Notes: generated by a model from the sequence alone, not told the origin. A stretch of DNA of 64,000 bases from a virus (IMGVR_UViG_3300037067_003476:32001-96000), one strand, 5' to 3'. Positions 5,735 through 34,573 are shown, numbered from the stretch's first letter. Numbers and translations: made by a program.

Positions 5735-6818
5735 ACCCGTAGTAATGACAATCTCTGGAATACGCCCAGATTTTATACGTATGTCTGCTGTATATAAAAG
5801 GCTGGATGAATGCACAGATCACTGTCTCGTACATTCAGGCCAACATTTTGATACAATTTTATCGGGAACATTTTTTGACGAATTCAATATTCGCGAACCA
5901 GATTACAACCTAGATATAGGTAAGGATAGTCCTAGTCATTGGATGCAATTGTCAAACCTCACTAGGCGATTGTTTGAACTCATAAAAAGAGAAAGTCTAA
6001 ATCCAGACTTAATTTTGTTTTTGGGCGACAGCAATTCTGTGTGTTGTTCACTCCCACTGAAAAAGGAAGGATTCAAGATAGGTCATATCGAAGCCGGAAT
6101 GAGATCTGGAGATAGGCGTATGCTAGAAGAAATCAATCGGGTGACGTGCGACCACTGTTCAGACATATTGTTTACGTATCATAACGACTATAGAGACAAT
6201 CTACTTCTAGAAAATGTCAAACAAGAAAGCATACATGTTGTTGGCAACACAATAGTCGAGGTTTGTAAGCCGATAGCCGACAAGCTAAAACAACGACCAA
6301 GCGCACGAAATCAAATCATTGTAGATATACATAGGCCAGAATCGATTAACGACCCTAACAGATTACATAATATTCTTCGTCTTGCAGAATATCTTGGGAA
6401 TGTTTATAGGGTGCCCGTTAGGTTTTTGAAATTTAGTCGCACGATGCGAGCTATTAAGAAGGCTGGATTAGATTTTGGTAGTATTACGCCAGTTGCGCTT
6501 ATGGGGTATGGTGATTTCCTTAGAGAACAATATGATTCGGTTTGTCTAGTATCTGATAGCGGAACTGCGCAAGAAGAAACCGCATTGCTTAACACCCCGG
6601 TCTTGGTTCCAAGAGACTACACAGAACGCCCACAGTCTGTTGTGTTTGGATGTTCTGCCATGGTTAACGCAAATAATGTCCGTCAAGTAGATGTGAATAG
6701 ATATGTTGAATGGGTTGATATGACGTTGAGCGAACCAGATCGCATGAAGACGGAGTGGCTTGGGGATGGAAACACAGCGCAGAAAATCGTAGAAATAATC
6801 GAAAGGATAATTCGGTGA
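5727..6818 (+). CDS. non-hydrolysing UDP-N-acetylhexosamine 2-epimerase (WecB/FnlC-like)
   Basis: GIRPDFIRM, HSGQH, LGDSNS, HIEAGMRS, EEINR, DSGTAQEE, TERP. Confidence 0.92.
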   Translation: MSKPVVMTISGIRPDFIRMSAVYKRLDECTDHCLVHSGQHFDTILSGTFFDEFNIREPDYNLDIGKDSPSHWMQLSNLTRRLFELIKRESLNPDLILFLGDSNSVCCSLPLKKEGFKIGHIEAGMRSGDRRMLEEINRVTCDHCSDILFTYHNDYRDNLLLENVKQESIHVVGNTIVEVCKPIADKLKQRPSARNQIIVDIHRPESINDPNRLHNILRLAEYLGNVYRVPVRFLKFSRTMRAIKKAGLDFGSITPVALMGYGDFLREQYDSVCLVSDSGTAQEETALLNTPVLVPRDYTERPQSVVFGCSAMVNANNVRQVDVNRYVEWVDMTLSEPDRMKTEWLGDGNTAQKIVEIIERIIR

Positions 6819-27409: not shown

Positions 27410-27977
27410 AACGCAGTTACTGCTAAGCCTTTGTGAACAGATTGCTGGATGTAGGAAATGCGAATTATATCACAAAAGAACTAATTCTGTTTGTGGATAC
27501 GGAAACACAGAAGCGTCTATCATGTTTATTGGTGAGGCCCCAGGAGAACAAGAGGATAGTTGTGGTATACCATTTACTGGCAGGTGCGGAAAATACTTTA
27601 GGAAGTGTTTGCTAGATATTGGATTCGATACCACTCAGCATTTTATAACTAATGCAGTAAGATGTAGACCACCTAAAAATAGAACACCGAAGCCAAACGA
27701 AATAGAAAAGTGTCAACAATGGATACATGCCCAATTAGATATCATCCAGCCCAAAGTAATTGTTTGTGTTGGTAAGGTTGCTGCACAATCGATACTACGT
27801 ATTCCGTCTAGCCAATCATTGCAGTCTATAATGAACAGATGGCATAATCATTGGAAAACTGGGATTAAAACCAGGGCCATTTACCATCCTAGCTACATCA
27901 TGCAACACGGCCGTAAACACGAACGGGTTTTCAGGAATGATTTAATGGAGATATTGAACTATGTCCGAACCCATTAA
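27396..27977 (+). CDS. family 4 uracil-DNA glycosylase (4Fe-4S)
   Basis: CRKC.L, GEAPG..ED, NAVRCRPPKNR.P...E...C, YHPSY; TTG start after GGAGGT. Confidence 0.92.
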   Translation: MSPTKTQLLLSLCEQIAGCRKCELYHKRTNSVCGYGNTEASIMFIGEAPGEQEDSCGIPFTGRCGKYFRKCLLDIGFDTTQHFITNAVRCRPPKNRTPKPNEIEKCQQWIHAQLDIIQPKVIVCVGKVAAQSILRIPSSQSLQSIMNRWHNHWKTGIKTRAIYHPSYIMQHGRKHERVFRNDLMEILNYVRTH

Positions 27978-29700
27978 ATTCGATAGATGTAATTGTTCTA
28001 TTGAACATGGCAAGTTTGATATACGTGAAATCCCATTGGATTGTCCAGTTGTGTGGGACTTGATCAGTAGTGGATATACTACTGGTATCTTTCAACTTGA
28101 AACAAAACTTGGACAAGACTGGGCTAGGAAAGTTAGACCGAGAAGTATTGAAGAGCTGTCGGATTTAATTAGCCTGATGCGGCCAGGGCCGTTAGAGTCA
28201 AATATGGCCCAAGATTATGTTGATATCAAATTCGGAAGAAAGCCATTGGAATATCTACATCCTGTACTAAAACCAATTCTTGAATCTACATATTCAGCTT
28301 TACTATATCAGGAACAAAGTCTTAAGATCGCTGTTGAGATTGCTGGATTTTCGCTGATACAAGCTGATTCACTTAGGAAAAGCCTCGGGAAGAAAGACTC
28401 TGTTTTAATGGCGAAAGCAAAAAAGGAATTTGTGGAGGGAGCAGTTAAAAAGGGACTTGTTACAAAATCTGTAGCAGAAGAAATTTTTGGATGGATTGAA
28501 AAGGGACAACGATATATCTTCAACAAATCACACAGTATCAGCTATGCATCATTAGGATATCAGACAGCATGGCTCAAGGCGCATTTCCCACATGAGTTCT
28601 ATGCATCCTACTTGACGTATGCCAAGTTTAAGGGGGATGAAAAAGAAGAGATATACAAGCTAATACAGGATGCCAGACTGTTTGGGATAGAAACTATTTC
28701 ACCAGACATTAGGCTTGGAAACCCTGAGTTTAGATTAGTTGATGGAAAAATTGCGTATGGTCTAGCAAATATTCGCGGTGTTGGTGATGGCGCAATCAAC
28801 AGGATACTTGGGGCTGGCCAGATAGATACATGGCAAAAGTTTCTAGATGCGGTCCCTGGTCTTCATAGAAACGTCGGTGAAGCCCTAATCAAATCCGGGG
28901 CATGCGATTGCTATGGATTGTCAAGATCTCGCATGATAGCTGAATTACAAGCAGTACTTGGTACAAATGTGCGAGACGAACAAGGGGAGAGGGTGGATAT
29001 CAAGGGATTGACGGATCGGGAAAAGGATTGGTTCTTCACCAATTTTCACAAATTTGGTAGCACGGCGAGTACATTACAGGGAATGATGAATATACAGAAT
29101 ATTGTGCCGGTTGCTAGGTTGACCAAAAAACAGGTTATTGAAACTATACTAGAATTGAATGGCGATATTAAGAGAGATGATATATGTAAGATGAAACGCG
29201 CAGAACTCAATGATATGTTAAGGGAACTTGGGTATGATCCTGGTGAACAAATACGTATTTCCCCTTCTAGAAGATCGGCGATACTTGATAAGATCAAACA
29301 GCTTGATGCGGTTTTTGAAGATACCCCAAGGGTTAAGGCTGAGGCTGAAAAGTATTTTCTTGGAATATCGTTATCGTGCTCACCCGTTGATGGTATTGGG
29401 GATGATCGGGCGACCCATACATGCGTGGATGTTGCCAGGGCATTGAGTGGAGAAGAATGTAGGGTTTGCGCAATTACAGATATGGTTAAGCATACAAAAA
29501 CAAAAAAGGGAAAGAATCCTGGTTCTCCGATGTGCTTCGTGACATTATCGGACTCCACTTACTCATTAGACCATGCTGTTGTATTTCCTGATGCATATCA
29601 GAAAAACAAGGATTTGTGTACTGAAAATTTAATCGTGTTGGTAACAGGGACAAAAAGAGACGGTTCTTTTATTGTCTCTGATATGAAAAAGTTGATATAG
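27961..29700 (+). CDS. dnaE: DNA polymerase III alpha, C-terminal chain (fingers + HhH + OB)
   Basis: IPLD, GIFQLE, RPGPL, YQEQ, FNKSHS.SY, YQTAWLKAH.P, I.GVG, C-terminal OB fold. Confidence 0.93.
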   Translation: MSEPIKFDRCNCSIEHGKFDIREIPLDCPVVWDLISSGYTTGIFQLETKLGQDWARKVRPRSIEELSDLISLMRPGPLESNMAQDYVDIKFGRKPLEYLHPVLKPILESTYSALLYQEQSLKIAVEIAGFSLIQADSLRKSLGKKDSVLMAKAKKEFVEGAVKKGLVTKSVAEEIFGWIEKGQRYIFNKSHSISYASLGYQTAWLKAHFPHEFYASYLTYAKFKGDEKEEIYKLIQDARLFGIETISPDIRLGNPEFRLVDGKIAYGLANIRGVGDGAINRILGAGQIDTWQKFLDAVPGLHRNVGEALIKSGACDCYGLSRSRMIAELQAVLGTNVRDEQGERVDIKGLTDREKDWFFTNFHKFGSTASTLQGMMNIQNIVPVARLTKKQVIETILELNGDIKRDDICKMKRAELNDMLRELGYDPGEQIRISPSRRSAILDKIKQLDAVFEDTPRVKAEAEKYFLGISLSCSPVDGIGDDRATHTCVDVARALSGEECRVCAITDMVKHTKTKKGKNPGSPMCFVTLSDSTYSLDHAVVFPDAYQKNKDLCTENLIVLVTGTKRDGSFIVSDMKKLI

Positions 29701-29728: not shown

Positions 29729-30178
29729 ATGACTATGAATCTAAATGGCTTACAGTGTGTTGGTCGTGGTAATCTTGTATCAAAACCCGAATCTAGAATT
29801 ATTGGAACTAGTGGTAGGGTCGTAACAAATGCAAGAATCGCATTTAATCGCTATTATAAGCAGGGTGAAGATCGCAAGAAAGAAACGGTGTTTCTTGATG
29901 TTTGTGCATTCAATTCGCTAGCTAAACGATTGTCCACCTTTGATAAGGGCGATTATTTAATGATCACTGGAACGATTACGGATGATTCTTATCAGTCTAA
30001 GGAACATGGCATGATTGTCAAAATGAAGGTCATGCTAGATAGTGTTGACAAATTGTATACCGTAGACACTAGCAATAAAGATAGCAAATCTAGCGAGTCA
30101 ACGCCAAGTACGCCAGAACCACCAACCACACCTGAAAATGTGGATTCGGTAGAATACACAGACGAAATCCCGTTTTAA
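29729..30178 (+). CDS. ssb: single-stranded DNA-binding protein
   Basis: GNL...PE, ETVFLDV.AF, KGD...ITG, acidic tail DEIPF; SD AGGAGG. Confidence 0.92.
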   Translation: MTMNLNGLQCVGRGNLVSKPESRIIGTSGRVVTNARIAFNRYYKQGEDRKKETVFLDVCAFNSLAKRLSTFDKGDYLMITGTITDDSYQSKEHGMIVKMKVMLDSVDKLYTVDTSNKDSKSSESTPSTPEPPTTPENVDSVEYTDEIPF

Positions 30179-30199: not shown

Positions 30200-31696
30200 A
30201 TGGGTAAAAAACGACTACTGTTTGTAGGCGAAGCAAGTTATCTAGCTACTGGTTTTTCTACATATTGGAATGAAGTCATTAAGCGAATAAACGCAACCGG
30301 TAGGTTTGAGGTAGCGGAATTTGGTTCATATGCTGGTGACTCGGATCCAAGAAATCAGCATGTTCCATGGAAATTCTACTCTAACGCCCCAGACCCAAAT
30401 GACCAAGCAGCCAACCAAGCATATCATTCTAGGCACACCAATCAGTTTGGTGAGTGGCGACTTAATGATGTATTGCTAGATTGGAAGCCCGACACACTTC
30501 TCTTATTGCGTGATTTTTGGATGGATGAGTTCGTATTAAGATCTCCTCTTAGGAGTAACTTCAAGGTTATTTGGATGCCGACCATAGACGGCGCACCCCA
30601 ACGCAAACTCTGGGTCGACGCATACAAGCAGTGCGATGCGATAATGACATATTCCCAATGGGGTAAAAATCTACTTGAAAAAGAATATGACCTAAAGGTA
30701 ACTGCGGTAGCATCTCCTGGAGCGGAATTAGATTTGTTCAAGCCAGTTCCAGACAAGGGGGCGCATAAAGCTAAACACGGGATAAACCCTTCGTCATTCA
30801 TTATTGGTACGGTAATGCGAAATCAAAAACGCAAGTTGTATGTAGACCTAATAGAAGCATTCGCCGAATGGCTACGCTCATCAAAGAAAAGTTCTCATCT
30901 AGATATTGCGAAGAAAACGTATTTGTACCTACACACCAGTTATCCAGATGTCGGATATGACATTGGTGACGCAATACAAAAATTCAAGGTTGGCAACAAG
31001 GTACTAATGACATATTTATGTTCTGCTTGTGGAACTGCGTATCCATCATTCTTCTCCGGAGAATGGACGCATTGTCGAAGATGTGGTAAGTTAGCGGCAC
31101 ATCCACCGAACGCCAACCACTCCGTTGGGAGGGATGTTCTTGCTAGTATATACAATCTCTTTGATGTGTATGTACAGTATTCAATTTGTTTGCACCCAGA
31201 TACCCCAATATTGTTAAGTGACTACACACATAAACGGATAGCAGACATTAAATCTGGTGATAAAATTATAAACGGAAATGGGGATACCGTTGATGTTGAT
31301 TGGTGTAAACAAACCAGCAATACGTCATCTACGGTCGAAATAACGACACACGAAAATCCCAAACCAGTCATAGTTACCAAGGACCATCGTGTTCTAACTA
31401 TGAACGAAAATGGTGAATTTGTATTTATAGAAGCCAAGGATCTTCTGAATAAATGGGTCGTTTGCCCAGCCAATAACGCCAAGATTTTTGACGCTATCAA
31501 GATACATAACCCAAGGAAGAATAGTAAATACAGGAAAAAATACAAAGACTATCTTTTGATAAAGGTTAAGTCGGTCGAACCAAGCGACTATACCGGCCCT
31601 GTCTACGATCTTGCGGTTGTTCCGCCGAAAGGGGGTGATGCCAACTCTCGCAGTTTCGTTGCGAACCATTTCGTAACACATAACTGTGAGGGTTAA
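30200..31696 (+). CDS. GT4 glycosyltransferase N-terminal part + mini-intein, ending CEG-stop
   Basis: TGFSTY, VMRNQKRK, YLHTSYPD.G, Zn insert CSAC..CRRC, IYNLFDVYVQYSI, then intein. Confidence 0.88.
   Translation: MGKKRLLFVGEASYLATGFSTYWNEVIKRINATGRFEVAEFGSYAGDSDPRNQHVPWKFYSNAPDPNDQAANQAYHSRHTNQFGEWRLNDVLLDWKPDTLLLLRDFWMDEFVLRSPLRSNFKVIWMPTIDGAPQRKLWVDAYKQCDAIMTYSQWGKNLLEKEYDLKVTAVASPGAELDLFKPVPDKGAHKAKHGINPSSFIIGTVMRNQKRKLYVDLIEAFAEWLRSSKKSSHLDIAKKTYLYLHTSYPDVGYDIGDAIQKFKVGNKVLMTYLCSACGTAYPSFFSGEWTHCRRCGKLAAHPPNANHSVGRDVLASIYNLFDVYVQYSICLHPDTPILLSDYTHKRIADIKSGDKIINGNGDTVDVDWCKQTSNTSSTVEITTHENPKPVIVTKDHRVLTMNENGEFVFIEAKDLLNKWVVCPANNAKIFDAIKIHNPRKNSKYRKKYKDYLLIKVKSVEPSDYTGPVYDLAVVPPKGGDANSRSFVANHFVTHNCEG
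31187..31684 (+). mobile_element. 166-aa mini-intein (no homing endonuclease)
   Basis: Block A CLHPDT, block B TKDH, block F VYDL, block G VTHN followed by Cys+1. Confidence 0.93.
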
Positions 31697-32401
31697 CTAG
31701 GCTGGGGGATGCCTATAATCGAGAGTATGAGTTGCGCTGTCCCTGCAATGGTGGTAAACTATTCAGCGATGGAAGATCATGCAAAAATGCCGGGTGGTAT
31801 CCCAATTAATGTTGGAAGATACTTTTATGAAGCTGTAATCGAAACGGAACAAAGACGGGCATTGCCAGACAATAAACATTTTGGAGAACAACTAAACCGT
31901 ATTGTCAAGATGAAACCTGGACAAAGAGAAGAATTAGCTAGACGAACACATAATTATATCGTTGAGCCAGCAGAAGTATTCGGCCAAACAGAAAAATTAC
32001 CACGATTCGGGTACGATAGGACAGCGGCCATATGGATGAATGTTATTGATTCCATAGGGGCGTTGGATAGGTCTAAGACATGGGACAGGAAGGAACCTAA
32101 TTACCGGATTCCAGACCTAAAAGCACCAAATAGAGTGATGAGCAACACCGAGTTTGTTAGGTGGGCTATTACGAGTATAATGCGTAGACCTGATCTTGCT
32201 ACATCGTTCATGGCAAATGAGTGGATCAGATGGTTAAACTGTGGATTTAAGATAGAAGGAAACCAAAGGGTTCCGTGTGATCGAAATACCATAGCGAATA
32301 TGGCCATACAGATTGTCAATGAATATAACAGTGCAGAAAAAATGAGGGCAGATAGCTTGGTTGCTCGAAATAATGACGAAATTGGATTTACGGTGTTATA
32401 A
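31697..32401 (+). CDS. GT4 glycosyltransferase C-terminal part, in frame with the upstream part
   Basis: After TAA the same frame reads L-G-W-G-M-P-I-I-E-S-M-S-C-A-V-P, the rest of the EX7E motif (ATG at 31709). Confidence 0.85.
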   Translation, partial: LGWGMPIIESMSCAVPAMVVNYSAMEDHAKMPGGIPINVGRYFYEAVIETEQRRALPDNKHFGEQLNRIVKMKPGQREELARRTHNYIVEPAEVFGQTEKLPRFGYDRTAAIWMNVIDSIGALDRSKTWDRKEPNYRIPDLKAPNRVMSNTEFVRWAITSIMRRPDLATSFMANEWIRWLNCGFKIEGNQRVPCDRNTIANMAIQIVNEYNSAEKMRADSLVARNNDEIGFTVL

Positions 32402-33594
32402 TGCGTGTACTGTATATATCTGTCTATAAGGATGGTACCGGTTATAGTCATGCTGCGATAGAAACTATTTTGGCGTGTGAAAAAGCTGGAATTGATATCG
32501 TATGCAGACCAATATCTATGTCCCCGATGAACGGTATCGATGATGCCAAACGAATTCAACACCTAGAATGCAAACCGCTAAACAATATAGATGTCGTCAT
32601 ACAACATTCGCTGCCGCACACCTTCGAGTATAAAAGCGGCGTTAAAAACATAGGTGTGTTTAGCTGGGAAACAACGCACTTTAGAAATTCAACATGGACA
32701 GAGCATTGTAATTTGATGGATGAGATATGGACATCATCTATTGTTGCCAAACAGGCTATTATTAATAGCGGTGTAACAAAGCCTGTGCGAGTTATTCCTA
32801 TCCCATGCAATGCTGATAAGTACAGTGGCACAATAAATCCAATAGCACTTCCTGGCAAACCGAATCAAACCGTATTCTATACAATAGGCGAATATACCAG
32901 ACGAAAAAACATCGTCGGAATAATCCGATCATACTTTCATGCTTTTACGCCAGACGACAATGTGGTGCTGGTAATAAAAACATCCTTTCCAGGAATGAAG
33001 GATAATGTAGCACAACAGCAGATCTCGCAAATAGTTGACGATATCAAAAGATCAACACATATTTATCAAAACCCAAGGGATTATCCGCCAATCATAGTGA
33101 TTACACGACGAATGTCTGATGAACACATAAGGCAATTGCACAAATCCGGAACATTCTTTGTATCTCCATCCCATGGAGAGACATGGTGCATTCCAGCTAT
33201 GGACGCACTCGGCTATAGTAACCCAGTTATCGCCTCTAATTGGGGTAGTTTTCCAGAATTGCTAATGGACCCTGATCTCGCTAAGCAATTTTTCGATCCA
33301 GGTACTATGTCATTTGCGTATCCTGGAGATGTTTCTGGCGGCTACCTGATCAAAGGGCAACTAGCCCCGTGCTTTGCCCCAGACGGCGGATTTAACGACC
33401 TATACACTGGTAAAGAAGAATGGTTTGAACCAAATCTGTGCCACTTATCTAGTCTTCTTCGTCGTGCATACAATATCCATCAATATCAACCGGATGTATT
33501 TACGAAACAAAGGATCAGTGCATCTATGCGAGCAATGGCATTTAATCACGCTAGTGTTGGCGATAGAATCAAATCGGCACTAACACAGGAGTAG
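32401..33594 (+). CDS. GT4 glycosyltransferase
   Basis: GTGYS, WET, FYTIGE...RKN, PSHGETWCIPAMDAL. Confidence 0.88.
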   Translation: MRVLYISVYKDGTGYSHAAIETILACEKAGIDIVCRPISMSPMNGIDDAKRIQHLECKPLNNIDVVIQHSLPHTFEYKSGVKNIGVFSWETTHFRNSTWTEHCNLMDEIWTSSIVAKQAIINSGVTKPVRVIPIPCNADKYSGTINPIALPGKPNQTVFYTIGEYTRRKNIVGIIRSYFHAFTPDDNVVLVIKTSFPGMKDNVAQQQISQIVDDIKRSTHIYQNPRDYPPIIVITRRMSDEHIRQLHKSGTFFVSPSHGETWCIPAMDALGYSNPVIASNWGSFPELLMDPDLAKQFFDPGTMSFAYPGDVSGGYLIKGQLAPCFAPDGGFNDLYTGKEEWFEPNLCHLSSLLRRAYNIHQYQPDVFTKQRISASMRAMAFNHASVGDRIKSALTQE

Positions 33595-33601
33595 AGCAGA
33601 A

Positions 33602-34573
33602 ATGCCAACGCAGATATCTAGGATACTAAGATGCGTTAATCGGGATCTCGATAGACCTCTTAACATTCTGTGCTCTCCGACTCATGAAGCATATGAAACA
33701 ATGCTATGCAAAACAGGTCACAGATTCTATTCTCTTCAACATCCAAATCTAAAACGATGGAACTGTAGGTCTAGGCCATATCCGATCAATTACCAGCCAA
33801 TAAATCATAATGCCCTACCCAACGATGTTGTTTTCGATATGGTGTTGTCGCAAAGTAAATGGGGGCAGTTTCAGATTCTTGGGCAAATCGCTCACGCACT
33901 TGGGTGTCCGCTTATTCAACTAGAGCATACCATTCCCATACGAGGAGTAAACGAACAACAGATCAAGCAAATGAAGAATATGAATGGCACCGTAAACGTG
34001 TATATATGTAAGTGGTCTGCCGATCAGTGGTGGGATAGTACTGGTGTTGCTATAGAGCATGGAATTGACACAAATATATTTTGCGGATGGAACGGCGCTA
34101 TGGGTGGCGTTTTATCTGTGGTCAATCAGTTTAGAGAACGAGATAGCTTATTGGGATTTTCTCTGTGGAAGAATGTCACGAATGGACTACAGACGAATCT
34201 TGTTGGCGATAATCCTGGTTTGTCTCAGGAGGCAACAAGTACGGATGATTTGGTAAATAGATACAGAGTGGCAGGGGTATTTTTGAATACGTCGTTGCAG
34301 TCAACATATCCGATGGCTATGATCGAGGCCATGGCTGTTGGGTGTCCAGTAGTATCAACACCAACATGCGCTATCCCCACCATTATCCAAGATGGCGTTA
34401 ATGGCATGCTTGGTTATACCCCAGAAGACTTACGATCCAAGCTTGAGTTGTTACTAAGGGATAAAGAGTTAGCTCGAACCATAGGAGAGGCTGGACGACA
34501 AACTGTATTGCATCGTTTCGGCGAATCAAGATTTATCGACGATTGGAACAATCTGTTTCGGGCATTAGCATGA
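33602..34573 (+). CDS. GT4 glycosyltransferase
   Basis: HGIDT, FLNTS..STYPMAMIEAMAVGCPVVST, DGVNG. Confidence 0.9.
   Translation: MPTQISRILRCVNRDLDRPLNILCSPTHEAYETMLCKTGHRFYSLQHPNLKRWNCRSRPYPINYQPINHNALPNDVVFDMVLSQSKWGQFQILGQIAHALGCPLIQLEHTIPIRGVNEQQIKQMKNMNGTVNVYICKWSADQWWDSTGVAIEHGIDTNIFCGWNGAMGGVLSVVNQFRERDSLLGFSLWKNVTNGLQTNLVGDNPGLSQEATSTDDLVNRYRVAGVFLNTSLQSTYPMAMIEAMAVGCPVVSTPTCAIPTIIQDGVNGMLGYTPEDLRSKLELLLRDKELARTIGEAGRQTVLHRFGESRFIDDWNNLFRALA

What the first reader, a model, noticed from the sequence alone, without database searches (positions are those of the whole stretch)
31685..31735. 9-nt stop-containing insert in a glycosyltransferase active-site motif that a Gly-to-Gly ribosomal hop would repair exactly
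Seen: after the intein the DNA reads TGT GAG GGT TAA CTA GGC TGG GGG ATG CCT ATA ATC GAG, and the downstream ORF is in the same frame. Known: GT4 enzymes need an E-x7-E motif (EGFGxPxxEA). Removing exactly 9 nt gives C-E-G-W-G-M-P-I-I-E-S-M-S-C, a perfect EX7E. Simple readthrough gives E-x10-E, and restarting at ATG 31709 loses W-G and splits the motif between two chains. The layout is take-off Gly codon GGU, stop, one codon, landing Gly codon GGC, both read by tRNA-Gly(GCC). That is the matched-codon layout of stop-hopping and T4 gene 60 bypassing. Both halves are otherwise intact open frames. Inference: programmed translational bypass stacked on protein splicing would put two post-transcriptional gates on one glycosyltransferase. 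Alternatives are a recent inactivating insertion or element footprint, or an assembly error.
Basis: partly seen in the sequence, partly recalled or inferred. Interest (0 to 1): 0.9.

Follow-up and report, generated by a model that had tools for sequence, protein, structure and literature searches.

The report
Intein-linked ribosome hop in phage glycosyltransferase
A phage sugar-transferase gene is interrupted first by an intein and then, three codons later, by a stop codon plus six bases; ten diverged relatives keep this kind of break in a form that makes most sense if ribosomes hop over it, pushed by an RNA hairpin encoded in the end of the intein.

Summary
At 31691-31702 the frame reads Gly codon, TAA, CTA, Gly codon inside the EX7E motif of a GT4 glycosyltransferase, three codons after a 166-aa mini-intein. 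It is not an artefact or a dead gene. Ten diverged alleles from independent assemblies carry a 5-9 nt stop-containing gap at this spot. All have one intein lineage. Six alleles with a second intein lineage at the same site, and about 75 intein-free alleles, are uninterrupted. Both halves are under strong purifying selection (dN/dS 0.03 and 0.06 at dS near 1). Gap lengths of 5, 6, 8 and 9 nt exclude readthrough. Removing the gap restores E-G-x-G-M-P exactly every time. The codon before the stop is repeated just before translation would resume in 8 of 10 alleles; the other two have AGC. The W/F-G codons between stop and ATG vary only synonymously. A strong hairpin (z -4 to -6) abuts the take-off codon only in stop-bearing alleles. 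Best reading: a programmed short translational bypass stacked on protein splicing (about 0.65). Main rival: termination and restart giving a two-piece enzyme (about 0.22). No protein or RNA data exist. This scan has noted similar intein- or endonuclease-linked hops on other DNA; I found no published case.

The parts
30200..31186 (+). N-extein of the GT4 glycosyltransferase (329 aa, ends Y-S-I)
   Evidence: ORF. It is 55-69% identical to intact 565-570 aa homologues that carry PF00534. dN/dS is 0.033 against L003.
31187..31684 (+). 166-aa mini-intein (Cys1 to His-Asn) with no endonuclease domain, of the stop-associated 'lineage A'
   Evidence: PF14890 hit. Alignment A1 shows invariant C1, T64, H67, H165, N166 and the +1 Cys. 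Relatives carry a LAGLIDADG domain where the window has a deletion.
31647..31690 (+). RNA hairpin abutting the take-off codon. Outer stem 31647-31655 with 31682-31690; inner stem 31658-31665 with 31670-31677; loop 31666-31669.
   Evidence: -19.4 kcal/mol, z -5.9, and 0 of 200 dinucleotide shuffles fold as well. Present in stop-bearing alleles and absent from four stop-free lineage-B alleles. Only 1 third-position change in its 16 codons against L003, compared with 0.40 per codon overall, P=0.003.
31685..31693 (+). First three C-extein codons, Cys(+1)-Glu-Gly. GGT 31691-31693 is the proposed take-off codon.
   Evidence: The take-off Gly codon is GGY in 9 of 9 Gly-type alleles, against 52-59% GGY at these positions in intact alleles.
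31694..31699 (+). The gap proper: stop TAA (31694-31696) plus spacer CTA (31697-31699). With one of the two Gly codons it makes up the 9 extra nucleotides.
   Evidence: L003 has TGA in place of TAA with the same spacer.
31700..31702 (+). Proposed landing codon GGC
   Evidence: Synonymous with the take-off codon. The same layout is seen in 8 of 10 alleles.
31703..32401 (+). Rest of the C-extein. The Trp-Gly bridging codons are at 31703-31708, then M-P-I-I-E onward to the stop at 32399-32401.
   Evidence: dN/dS is 0.060 against L003. Bridging codons vary only at third positions or W/F across alleles. No in-frame start codon lies between the stop and the bridging codons.

Best explanation
This is a programmed short-range translational bypass (a stop-hop) placed three codons after an intein. 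The proposed sequence of events is as follows. The ribosome translates the N-extein, the intein and Cys-Glu-Gly. With peptidyl-tRNA-Gly on GGU in the P site and UAA in the A site, termination is slow. The tRNA lets go of the mRNA and the mRNA slides 9 nt. The slide is probably pulled by re-zipping of the hairpin whose 3' arm is the Asn-Cys-Glu codons just behind the P site. The tRNA re-pairs with GGC and decoding resumes at UGG. The full precursor then splices out the intein, giving an intact enzyme with the motif E-G-W-G-M-P-I-I-E. The hairpin, which is encoded inside the intein, travels with the gap and the intein as one inherited unit. What is shown: the gap is real, old, conserved and tied to one intein lineage; both halves are under selection; the codons are matched; the bridging codons are conserved; the hairpin exists. 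What is inferred: the hop itself, its efficiency, and the role of the hairpin.
For: (1) Ten alleles carry gaps of 5, 6, 8 or 9 nt, and removing the gap restores E-G-[W/F/D]-G-M-P exactly each time. (2) The take-off codon is always directly followed by a stop, and all three stop codons occur. (3) The triplet just before the resume codon is synonymous with the take-off codon in 8 of 10 alleles. These include a TGG..TGG pair where the stop follows Trp (L008) and an exact GGC..GGC pair in a distant subfamily (L103). The other two alleles both have AGC, which keeps two G:C pairs with a GCC anticodon. (4) The bridging codons between landing codon and ATG are G-[W/F]-G in all 7 alleles that have them. 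All four bases occur at third positions, although synonymous sites are saturated between these alleles. No usable start codon precedes them. (5) L005 and L006, and likewise L022 and L009, differ by a 1-nt indel in the spacer, so frame does not matter. (6) dN/dS is 0.033 and 0.060 for the two halves at dS 0.92-0.97. (7) A hairpin directly 5' of the take-off codon has z -3.9 to -6.4 in 7 alleles and -3.1 in one more. It is absent from 4 stop-free alleles that carry another intein at the same site. It is also under synonymous-site constraint. (8) Pairing of mRNA leaving the ribosome is the proposed forward driver in T4 gene 60 (bioRxiv 10.1101/2024.12.09.627546). Hops over a slow codon with matched flanking codons are established in E. 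coli constructs, and the gene 60 gap travels with a homing endonuclease (bioRxiv 10.1101/2022.08.31.505936).
Against: There is no protein, ribosome-profiling or RNA evidence. Known unprogrammed hops are inefficient. Two alleles (L009, L011) lack a cognate landing codon. In the three alleles with DNA where the stop follows the second Gly (L009, L022, L103), the two ORFs together already encode every motif residue and the ATG lies 2-5 nt after the stop, which looks like ordinary stop-start coupling. The hairpin is weak in L009 and L022 (z -0.6 and -1.3). Covariation support is modest because there are only 10 related sequences. A hairpin behind a terminating ribosome could also favour downstream restart. 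The matched codons could in part be a footprint of how the insertion arose.
Confidence: 0.65

Rival explanations
1. Termination and reinitiation produce a two-piece enzyme. Translation ends at the stop, the intein splices N-extein to Cys-Glu-Gly, ribosomes restart at ATG 31709, and the two chains assemble non-covalently into an active glycosyltransferase.
For: An ATG follows the stop within 2-12 nt in all 10 alleles. Restart is frame-independent, as the data require. In L009, L022 and L103 nothing of the motif would be lost. Split phage genes that reassemble are known, including those split by homing endonucleases (cited). A hairpin behind the ribosome could block backward scanning.
Against: In the window and 6 other alleles, one or two motif residues (W/F-G, or G alone in L008) would be encoded by neither chain, yet their codons are conserved with purely synonymous or W/F variation at saturated divergence. 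Restart does not predict the repeated Gly or Trp codon. There is no convincing Shine-Dalgarno at a workable distance. No promoter is present. The break lies between a strand and a helix in the core of the C-terminal Rossmann domain, in the donor-binding motif. The Met position is M or L across the wider family, so the ATG is simply the native codon.
Confidence: 0.22
2. The gene is a pseudogene, carries a recent inactivating insertion, or the insert is an assembly error.
For: There is an in-frame stop in an active-site motif. Raw reads could not be inspected.
Against: The same feature appears in 10 alleles from independent assemblies. dN/dS is 0.03-0.06 in both halves at dS near 1. The downstream ORF is intact in all complete alleles.
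Confidence: 0.02
3. The stop codon is read through, by a suppressor tRNA, an alternative genetic code or selenocysteine, so that the extra codons are translated.
For: The 9-nt and 6-nt gaps are in frame.
Against: Gaps of 8 and 5 nt put the downstream ORF in another frame. TAA, TGA and TAG all occur at the site, and all three serve as ordinary stops in this genome. The phage's 5 tRNAs include no suppressor. Readthrough would give E-x10-E instead of E-x7-E.
Confidence: 0.01

Closest known systems
Phage T4 gene 60 translational bypass carried by the MobA homing-endonuclease element (Huang 1988; Bonocora 2011; Manning and Atkins, bioRxiv 10.1101/2022.08.31.505936)
   Same: Both have a Gly take-off codon directly followed by a stop, a matching Gly landing codon, and a gap left out of the product. 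Both have an mRNA hairpin 5' of the take-off site that can form as mRNA leaves the ribosome. Both are inherited together with a homing-endonuclease element in a phage gene.
   Different: The gap here is 5-9 nt, not 50. No conserved stem-loop holds the stop codon. The endonuclease is a LAGLIDADG domain inside an intein rather than a free-standing HNH gene. The host gene is not split into two genes with added tails. A role for the nascent peptide was not tested. Homology to the gene 60 cassette was not formally tested.
Stop-hopping in E. coli constructs, where 9 nt specify one amino acid (Weiss et al. 1987; O'Connor et al. 1989; cited)
   Same: The layout is codon, stop, synonymous codon. Allele L022 (Gly, TGA, Gly) has exactly this form, and hops of +5 and +6 were described.
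   Different: Those hops are synthetic and about 1% efficient. Here the layout is natural, conserved over saturated synonymous divergence, reaches +9, and has a dedicated 5' hairpin.
Candidate UUA-triggered bypass of 7-10 nt inserts in Streptomyces phage phiHau3 terminase (PMC10732093)
   Same: Short non-coding inserts sit in a conserved motif of an essential phage gene. Frame-independent restoration is needed. A 5' stem-loop and an internal Shine-Dalgarno were proposed as stimulators.
   Different: That case is triggered by a rare sense codon and is tied to the host tRNA supply. It has no intein or endonuclease link and involves only a few genomes.
Ordinary inteins in phage genes, including a second intein lineage at this very site (P0031, P0132, L033, L034, L037, L045)
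   Same: Same insertion point (Y-S-I | C-E-G) and the same splicing residues.
   Different: Those alleles have no stop, no gap and no hairpin.

Membership tests
Programmed translational bypassing (gene 60 type) | Non-coding gap that begins with a stop or slow codon directly 3' of the take-off codon | tested here: met
   Seen in 10 of 10 alleles.
Programmed translational bypassing (gene 60 type) | Landing codon cognate to the peptidyl-tRNA that left the take-off codon | tested here: met
   8 of 10 alleles have a synonymous landing codon, including one Trp/Trp pair. The other 2 have near-cognate AGC.
Programmed translational bypassing (gene 60 type) | One polypeptide made from the two ORFs, without the gap | not testable with these tools
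   This needs mass spectrometry or reporters. Only conservation of the bridging codons speaks for it.
Programmed translational bypassing (gene 60 type) | mRNA structure 5' of take-off that can form on exiting mRNA | tested here: met
   Hairpin with z -3.1 to -6.4 in 8 of 10 alleles. Controls without a stop have z near 0.
Programmed translational bypassing (gene 60 type) | Stem-loop that contains the take-off or stop codons (A-site stem-loop) | tested here: not met
   Folds of -36..+45 give z -1.6 to +0.5 and no shared structure.
Programmed translational bypassing (gene 60 type) | Stimulatory nascent peptide | not tested
   A lineage-specific K-G-G...H-S-F/Y-V segment lies 13-24 residues before the take-off codon. 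Its codons form the 5' arm of the hairpin, so RNA and peptide roles cannot be separated here.
GT4 retaining glycosyltransferase (GT-B fold, PF00534) | E-x7-E donor-binding motif | tested here: met
   Present only after removing the 9 nt. It aligns with the motif of the MshA, BshA and PimB' structures through the profile of intact homologues.
GT4 retaining glycosyltransferase (GT-B fold, PF00534) | Pfam PF00534 hit and GT-B fold | tested here: met
   Intact homologue P0011 hits PF00534 over residues 310-357. Its AF2 model has pLDDT 92.8 and matches 3oy2, MshA and BshA by Foldseek. The window's two fragments alone give no PF00534 hit.
Class 1 intein | Cys1, block B T-x-x-H, terminal His-Asn, +1 Cys, Hint domain | tested here: met
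   PF14890 hit and the invariant columns of A1.
Class 1 intein | Homing endonuclease domain | tested here: not met
   The window and L003 have a mini-intein. Relatives L005-L011 carry LAGLIDADG.
Split gene with translational coupling | The two ORFs together encode all conserved residues, and the second has its own start signal | tested here: not met
   In the window, W-G would be encoded by neither chain and there is no Shine-Dalgarno at a usable distance. The feature is met only in L009, L022 and L103.

The most novel reading that the evidence does not exclude
One intein lineage carries its own recoding cassette. The last 16 intein codons double as an RNA hairpin that drives ribosomes over a stop-containing gap placed just inside the C-extein. 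Intein, hairpin and gap would then spread and persist as one mobile unit. Precise loss of the intein would remove the hairpin and leave an unbypassable stop, so the host gene would become dependent on keeping the intein. With the intein- and endonuclease-linked hops this scan noted in an RNA polymerase, a terminase and other glycosyltransferases, short hairpin-driven hops would be a general and so far unpublished strategy of homing elements in phages.
Probability: 0.3. Interest if true: 0.92.

Novelty: new variant of a known kind. Interest (0 to 1): 0.82.

Why it matters
Efficient natural translational bypassing is known essentially from T4 gene 60 and one yeast mitochondrion. Short stop-hops are known mainly from constructs. 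This locus offers a small natural series: ten variants, four gap lengths and three take-off positions, plus built-in negative controls (the same gene and site with another intein and no gap). That series would make the rules of short-range bypassing directly testable: codon matching, gap length, and a 5' hairpin as the driver. It would also be a case where one protein needs two recoding or processing events in a row, a ribosome hop and then protein splicing. It would link inteins to bypass elements in the way MobA is linked to the gene 60 gap. On the practical side, gene callers split these genes and leave both fragments without a glycosyltransferase domain hit.

Tried and rejected
- Phage GenBank search with the whole gene found no match.
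- A metagenome pattern scan for the intein end found only an unrelated, uninterrupted intein (L020).
- An intein-based scan of viral contigs found inteins in helicase and terminase-like genes, all uninterrupted.
- Suppressor tRNA or alternative code was rejected.
- Readthrough was rejected because of the 5- and 8-nt gaps.
- A single +1 or -1 frameshift was rejected because it runs into stops or destroys the Glu of the motif (reading).
- A tiny intron or RNA-level removal has no known mechanism for 5-9 nt and could not be tested without RNA reads.
- No structure spans the gap.
- There is no Rfam family and no promoter or terminator at the site.
- Enrichment of the SD-like GAG codon before the take-off codon (8 of 10 against 50% in intact alleles) is not significant.
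- DNA for P0004, P0127 and P0130 could not be fetched. L021 turned out to be an intact allele at a contig edge.
- Complex prediction was not used, because the halves of one fold would pass by likeness and would not separate the two models.

Full report
**What is at the site.** The window lies in a 143-kb IMG/VR virus record. At 31685-31711 it reads Cys-Glu-Gly, TAA, CTA, GGC, TGG, GGG, ATG. The upstream ORF (30200-31696, 498 aa) has three parts: a 329-aa N-extein, a 166-aa mini-intein and Cys-Glu-Gly. The intein hits PF14890, has Cys1, T..H and a terminal HN followed by Cys, and has no endonuclease domain. The downstream ORF is in the same frame and runs to 32401. The nearest intein-free relative (L004, 61% identical) reads Y-S-I-C-E-G-W-G-M-P continuously. 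The window therefore carries the intein plus exactly 9 extra nucleotides.

**The host gene.** More than 1,900 proteins match the N-half. The rule is an uninterrupted protein of about 565-570 aa with PF00534, and IMG/VR holds at least 550 loci. For the intact homologue P0011:
- The Pfam hit covers residues 310-357, which is exactly the region the gap breaks.
- A profile of 34 homologues aligns this stretch to the E-x7-E motif of the GT4 structures MshA, BshA and PimB'.
- An AF2 model (pLDDT 92.8) puts I-C-E-G-W-G in the loop between strand 323-326 and helix 335-342 of the C-terminal Rossmann domain.
- Foldseek gives GT-B enzymes, with 3oy2 and MshA at the top.

The window's own two fragments give no glycosyltransferase hit.

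**The break is conserved and tied to one intein lineage.** I obtained junction DNA for ten alleles from independent JGI, ENA, Logan and NCBI assemblies (table computed). Each is written as take-off / stop / spacer / landing.

| Allele | Junction | Hop |
|---|---|---|
| window | GGT/TAA/CTA/GGC | +9 |
| L003 | GGT/TGA/CTA/GGC | +9 |
| L005 | GGC/TGA/ATT/GGT | +9 |
| L006 | GGC/TGA/AT/GGA | +8 |
| L007 | GGC/TGA/CC/GGT | +8 |
| L011 | GGT/TAG/TT/AGC | +8 |
| L008 | TGG/TAA/TT/TGG | +8 |
| L022 | GGT/TGA/-/GGA | +6 |
| L009 (same as L010) | GGT then TGAGC, with AGC as the triplet before ATG | +5 |
| L103 | GGC/TGA/AT/GGC | +8 |

- The stop follows the first Gly of the motif in six alleles, the Trp in L008, and the second Gly in L009, L022 and L103.
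- In every allele, deleting the gap gives E-G-[W/F/D]-G-M-P and an exact E-x7-E.
- Three further N-fragments known only as proteins end at the same places (P0004, P0136, P0141).
- All these alleles carry one intein lineage, recognisable by a K-G-G...H/R-S-F/Y-V segment before the terminal HN. Among the 150 best intein matches in 1.84 billion representatives, the K-G-G segment turned up only in the three proteins that end just after the intein. All three are fragments of this glycosyltransferase family.
- Six alleles with a different intein at the identical insertion point are uninterrupted (P0031, P0132, L033, L034, L037, L045). So are about 75 intein-free alleles.
- No full-length allele with the stop-associated intein was found.

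**Not a dead gene, not readthrough.**
- Window against L003 gives dN/dS 0.033 for the N-extein and 0.060 for the C-half, at dS 0.92-0.97. Synonymous sites are saturated between the other pairs.
- The gap has therefore persisted through long divergence while both halves stayed under selection.
- Gaps of 8 and 5 nt put the second ORF in another frame, which excludes readthrough.
- All three stop codons occur at the site and all three are ordinary stops in this genome. Its five tRNAs include no suppressor.

**Hop or restart?** Both are frame-independent. Three observations favour a hop.
- **Repeated codon.** The codon before the stop is repeated as the triplet just before the point where the motif resumes in 8 of 10 alleles. 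The repeat tracks the take-off position: Gly pairs, one Trp pair, and an exact GGC pair in the distant L103 subfamily. The two exceptions share AGC, which keeps two G:C pairs with a GCC anticodon. Take-off Gly codons are GGY in 9 of 9, against 52-59% in intact alleles.
- **Bridging codons.** In the seven alleles where one or two motif codons lie between landing codon and ATG, they are always [W/F]-G or G. All four bases occur at third positions and there is no other change. Under restart these codons would be untranslated spacer and should have decayed. Most alleles have no in-frame start codon upstream of them.
- **Hairpin.** A hairpin abuts the take-off codon. In the window it spans 31647-31690, with 17 bp, -19.4 kcal/mol, z -5.9 and 0 of 200 dinucleotide shuffles folding as well. 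z is -3.9 to -6.4 in seven alleles, -3.1 in L103, and weak in L009 and L022. It is about 0 in four stop-free alleles with the other intein.
  - Its 3' arm is the Asn-Cys-Glu codons, and its 5' arm is the lineage-specific Ser-His/Arg-Ser-Phe codons.
  - On the ten-sequence alignment, 76.5% of cells pair, against 31-47% when the partner is slid. Six pairs show double changes. That support is modest.
  - Between the window and L003, third positions differ in 1 of the hairpin's 16 codons, against 0.40 overall (P=0.003). This indicates an RNA-level constraint.
  - Pairing of mRNA as it leaves the ribosome is the proposed forward driver in gene 60. The window's loop starts 25 nt before the take-off codon; the corresponding distance quoted for gene 60 is 26 nt.

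**What keeps restart alive.**
- An ATG follows every gap, but it is the native Met codon of the motif. That position is M or L across the wider family.
- In L009, L022 and L103 the two ORFs lose no residue and the ATG is 2-5 nt from the stop.
- The hairpin could also bias a post-termination ribosome forwards.
- No structure spans the gap. There is no Rfam match and no promoter.

**Mechanism proposed.** The hop occurs at GGU-UAA, assisted by re-zipping of the 5' hairpin. The tRNA lands on GGC and translation continues. The intein then splices out and yields an intact GT4 enzyme. Ribosomes that terminate instead release N-extein-intein-CEG. The link to one intein lineage is explained most simply by tight linkage: the gap lies 9 nt from the intein and the hairpin lies inside it. 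Whether the arrangement benefits the element, for example by making intein loss lethal to the gene, is speculation.

**Relation to the known.** The logic matches T4 gene 60 with MobA: a Gly take-off, a stop, a matched landing codon, a 5' structure and a homing-element link. It also matches classic stop-hops. The differences are that the gap is 5-9 nt, the A-site stem-loop is missing, and the endonuclease sits in an intein. The phiHau3 terminase candidate is the nearest short-gap case. Literature searches found no report of an intein followed by a bypass gap. Earlier unchecked notes of this scan describe similar intein- or endonuclease-linked short hops with a 5' hairpin on other DNA. Within the scan, this is therefore a further instance rather than the first.

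**Verdict.** Programmed hop about 0.65, two-piece enzyme by restart about 0.22, and the remaining weight on a mix of the two, unknown mechanisms, pseudogene or readthrough.

Noticed in passing
L003:1313-3997 (IMGVR_UViG_3300021603_000005; L002 matches it at the junction): The closest relative's upstream ORF is 895 aa rather than 498. It therefore carries a second insertion of about 397 aa, presumably another intein, within the N-extein. P0030 also has an intein after D-H-W-M in the N-extein. This glycosyltransferase is an intein hot spot.
   Followed up: partly
window 31187 (insertion point Y-S-I | C-E-G): Two unrelated intein lineages occupy exactly the same insertion point in different phages. 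Only one of them is accompanied by the stop gap and hairpin.
   Followed up: yes
window 31697-31699 and the spacers of the other alleles: The spacers between stop and landing codon (CTA, ATT, AT, CC, TT, TT, AT) contain no G at all. This may avoid false landing sites. It is a post-hoc observation on few independent sequences.
   Followed up: no
window 32243-32290 and 32027-32075: Third-position divergence from L003 also dips here inside the C-half (1-2 differences per 16 codons), with no explanation so far.
   Followed up: no
window 32401-33594 and 33602-34573: The next two ORFs are also GT4-like (PF00534 hits) and are tightly coupled to the hop-bearing gene. The gene sits directly after ssb (29729-30178) and a DnaE C-terminal fragment (27961-29700).
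   Followed up: no
G000 outside the window (tRNAs at 6395, 139163, 139240, 140675, 141767 of the record): The phage encodes five tRNAs (Lys, two Met, Leu-UAA, Glu) but no tRNA-Gly, so the proposed hop would rely on the host's tRNA-Gly.
   Followed up: partly
P0120 (346 aa, JGI): A truncated member of this glycosyltransferase family is named 'ribosomal protein L40E' by its source. This is probably a mis-annotation.
   Followed up: no
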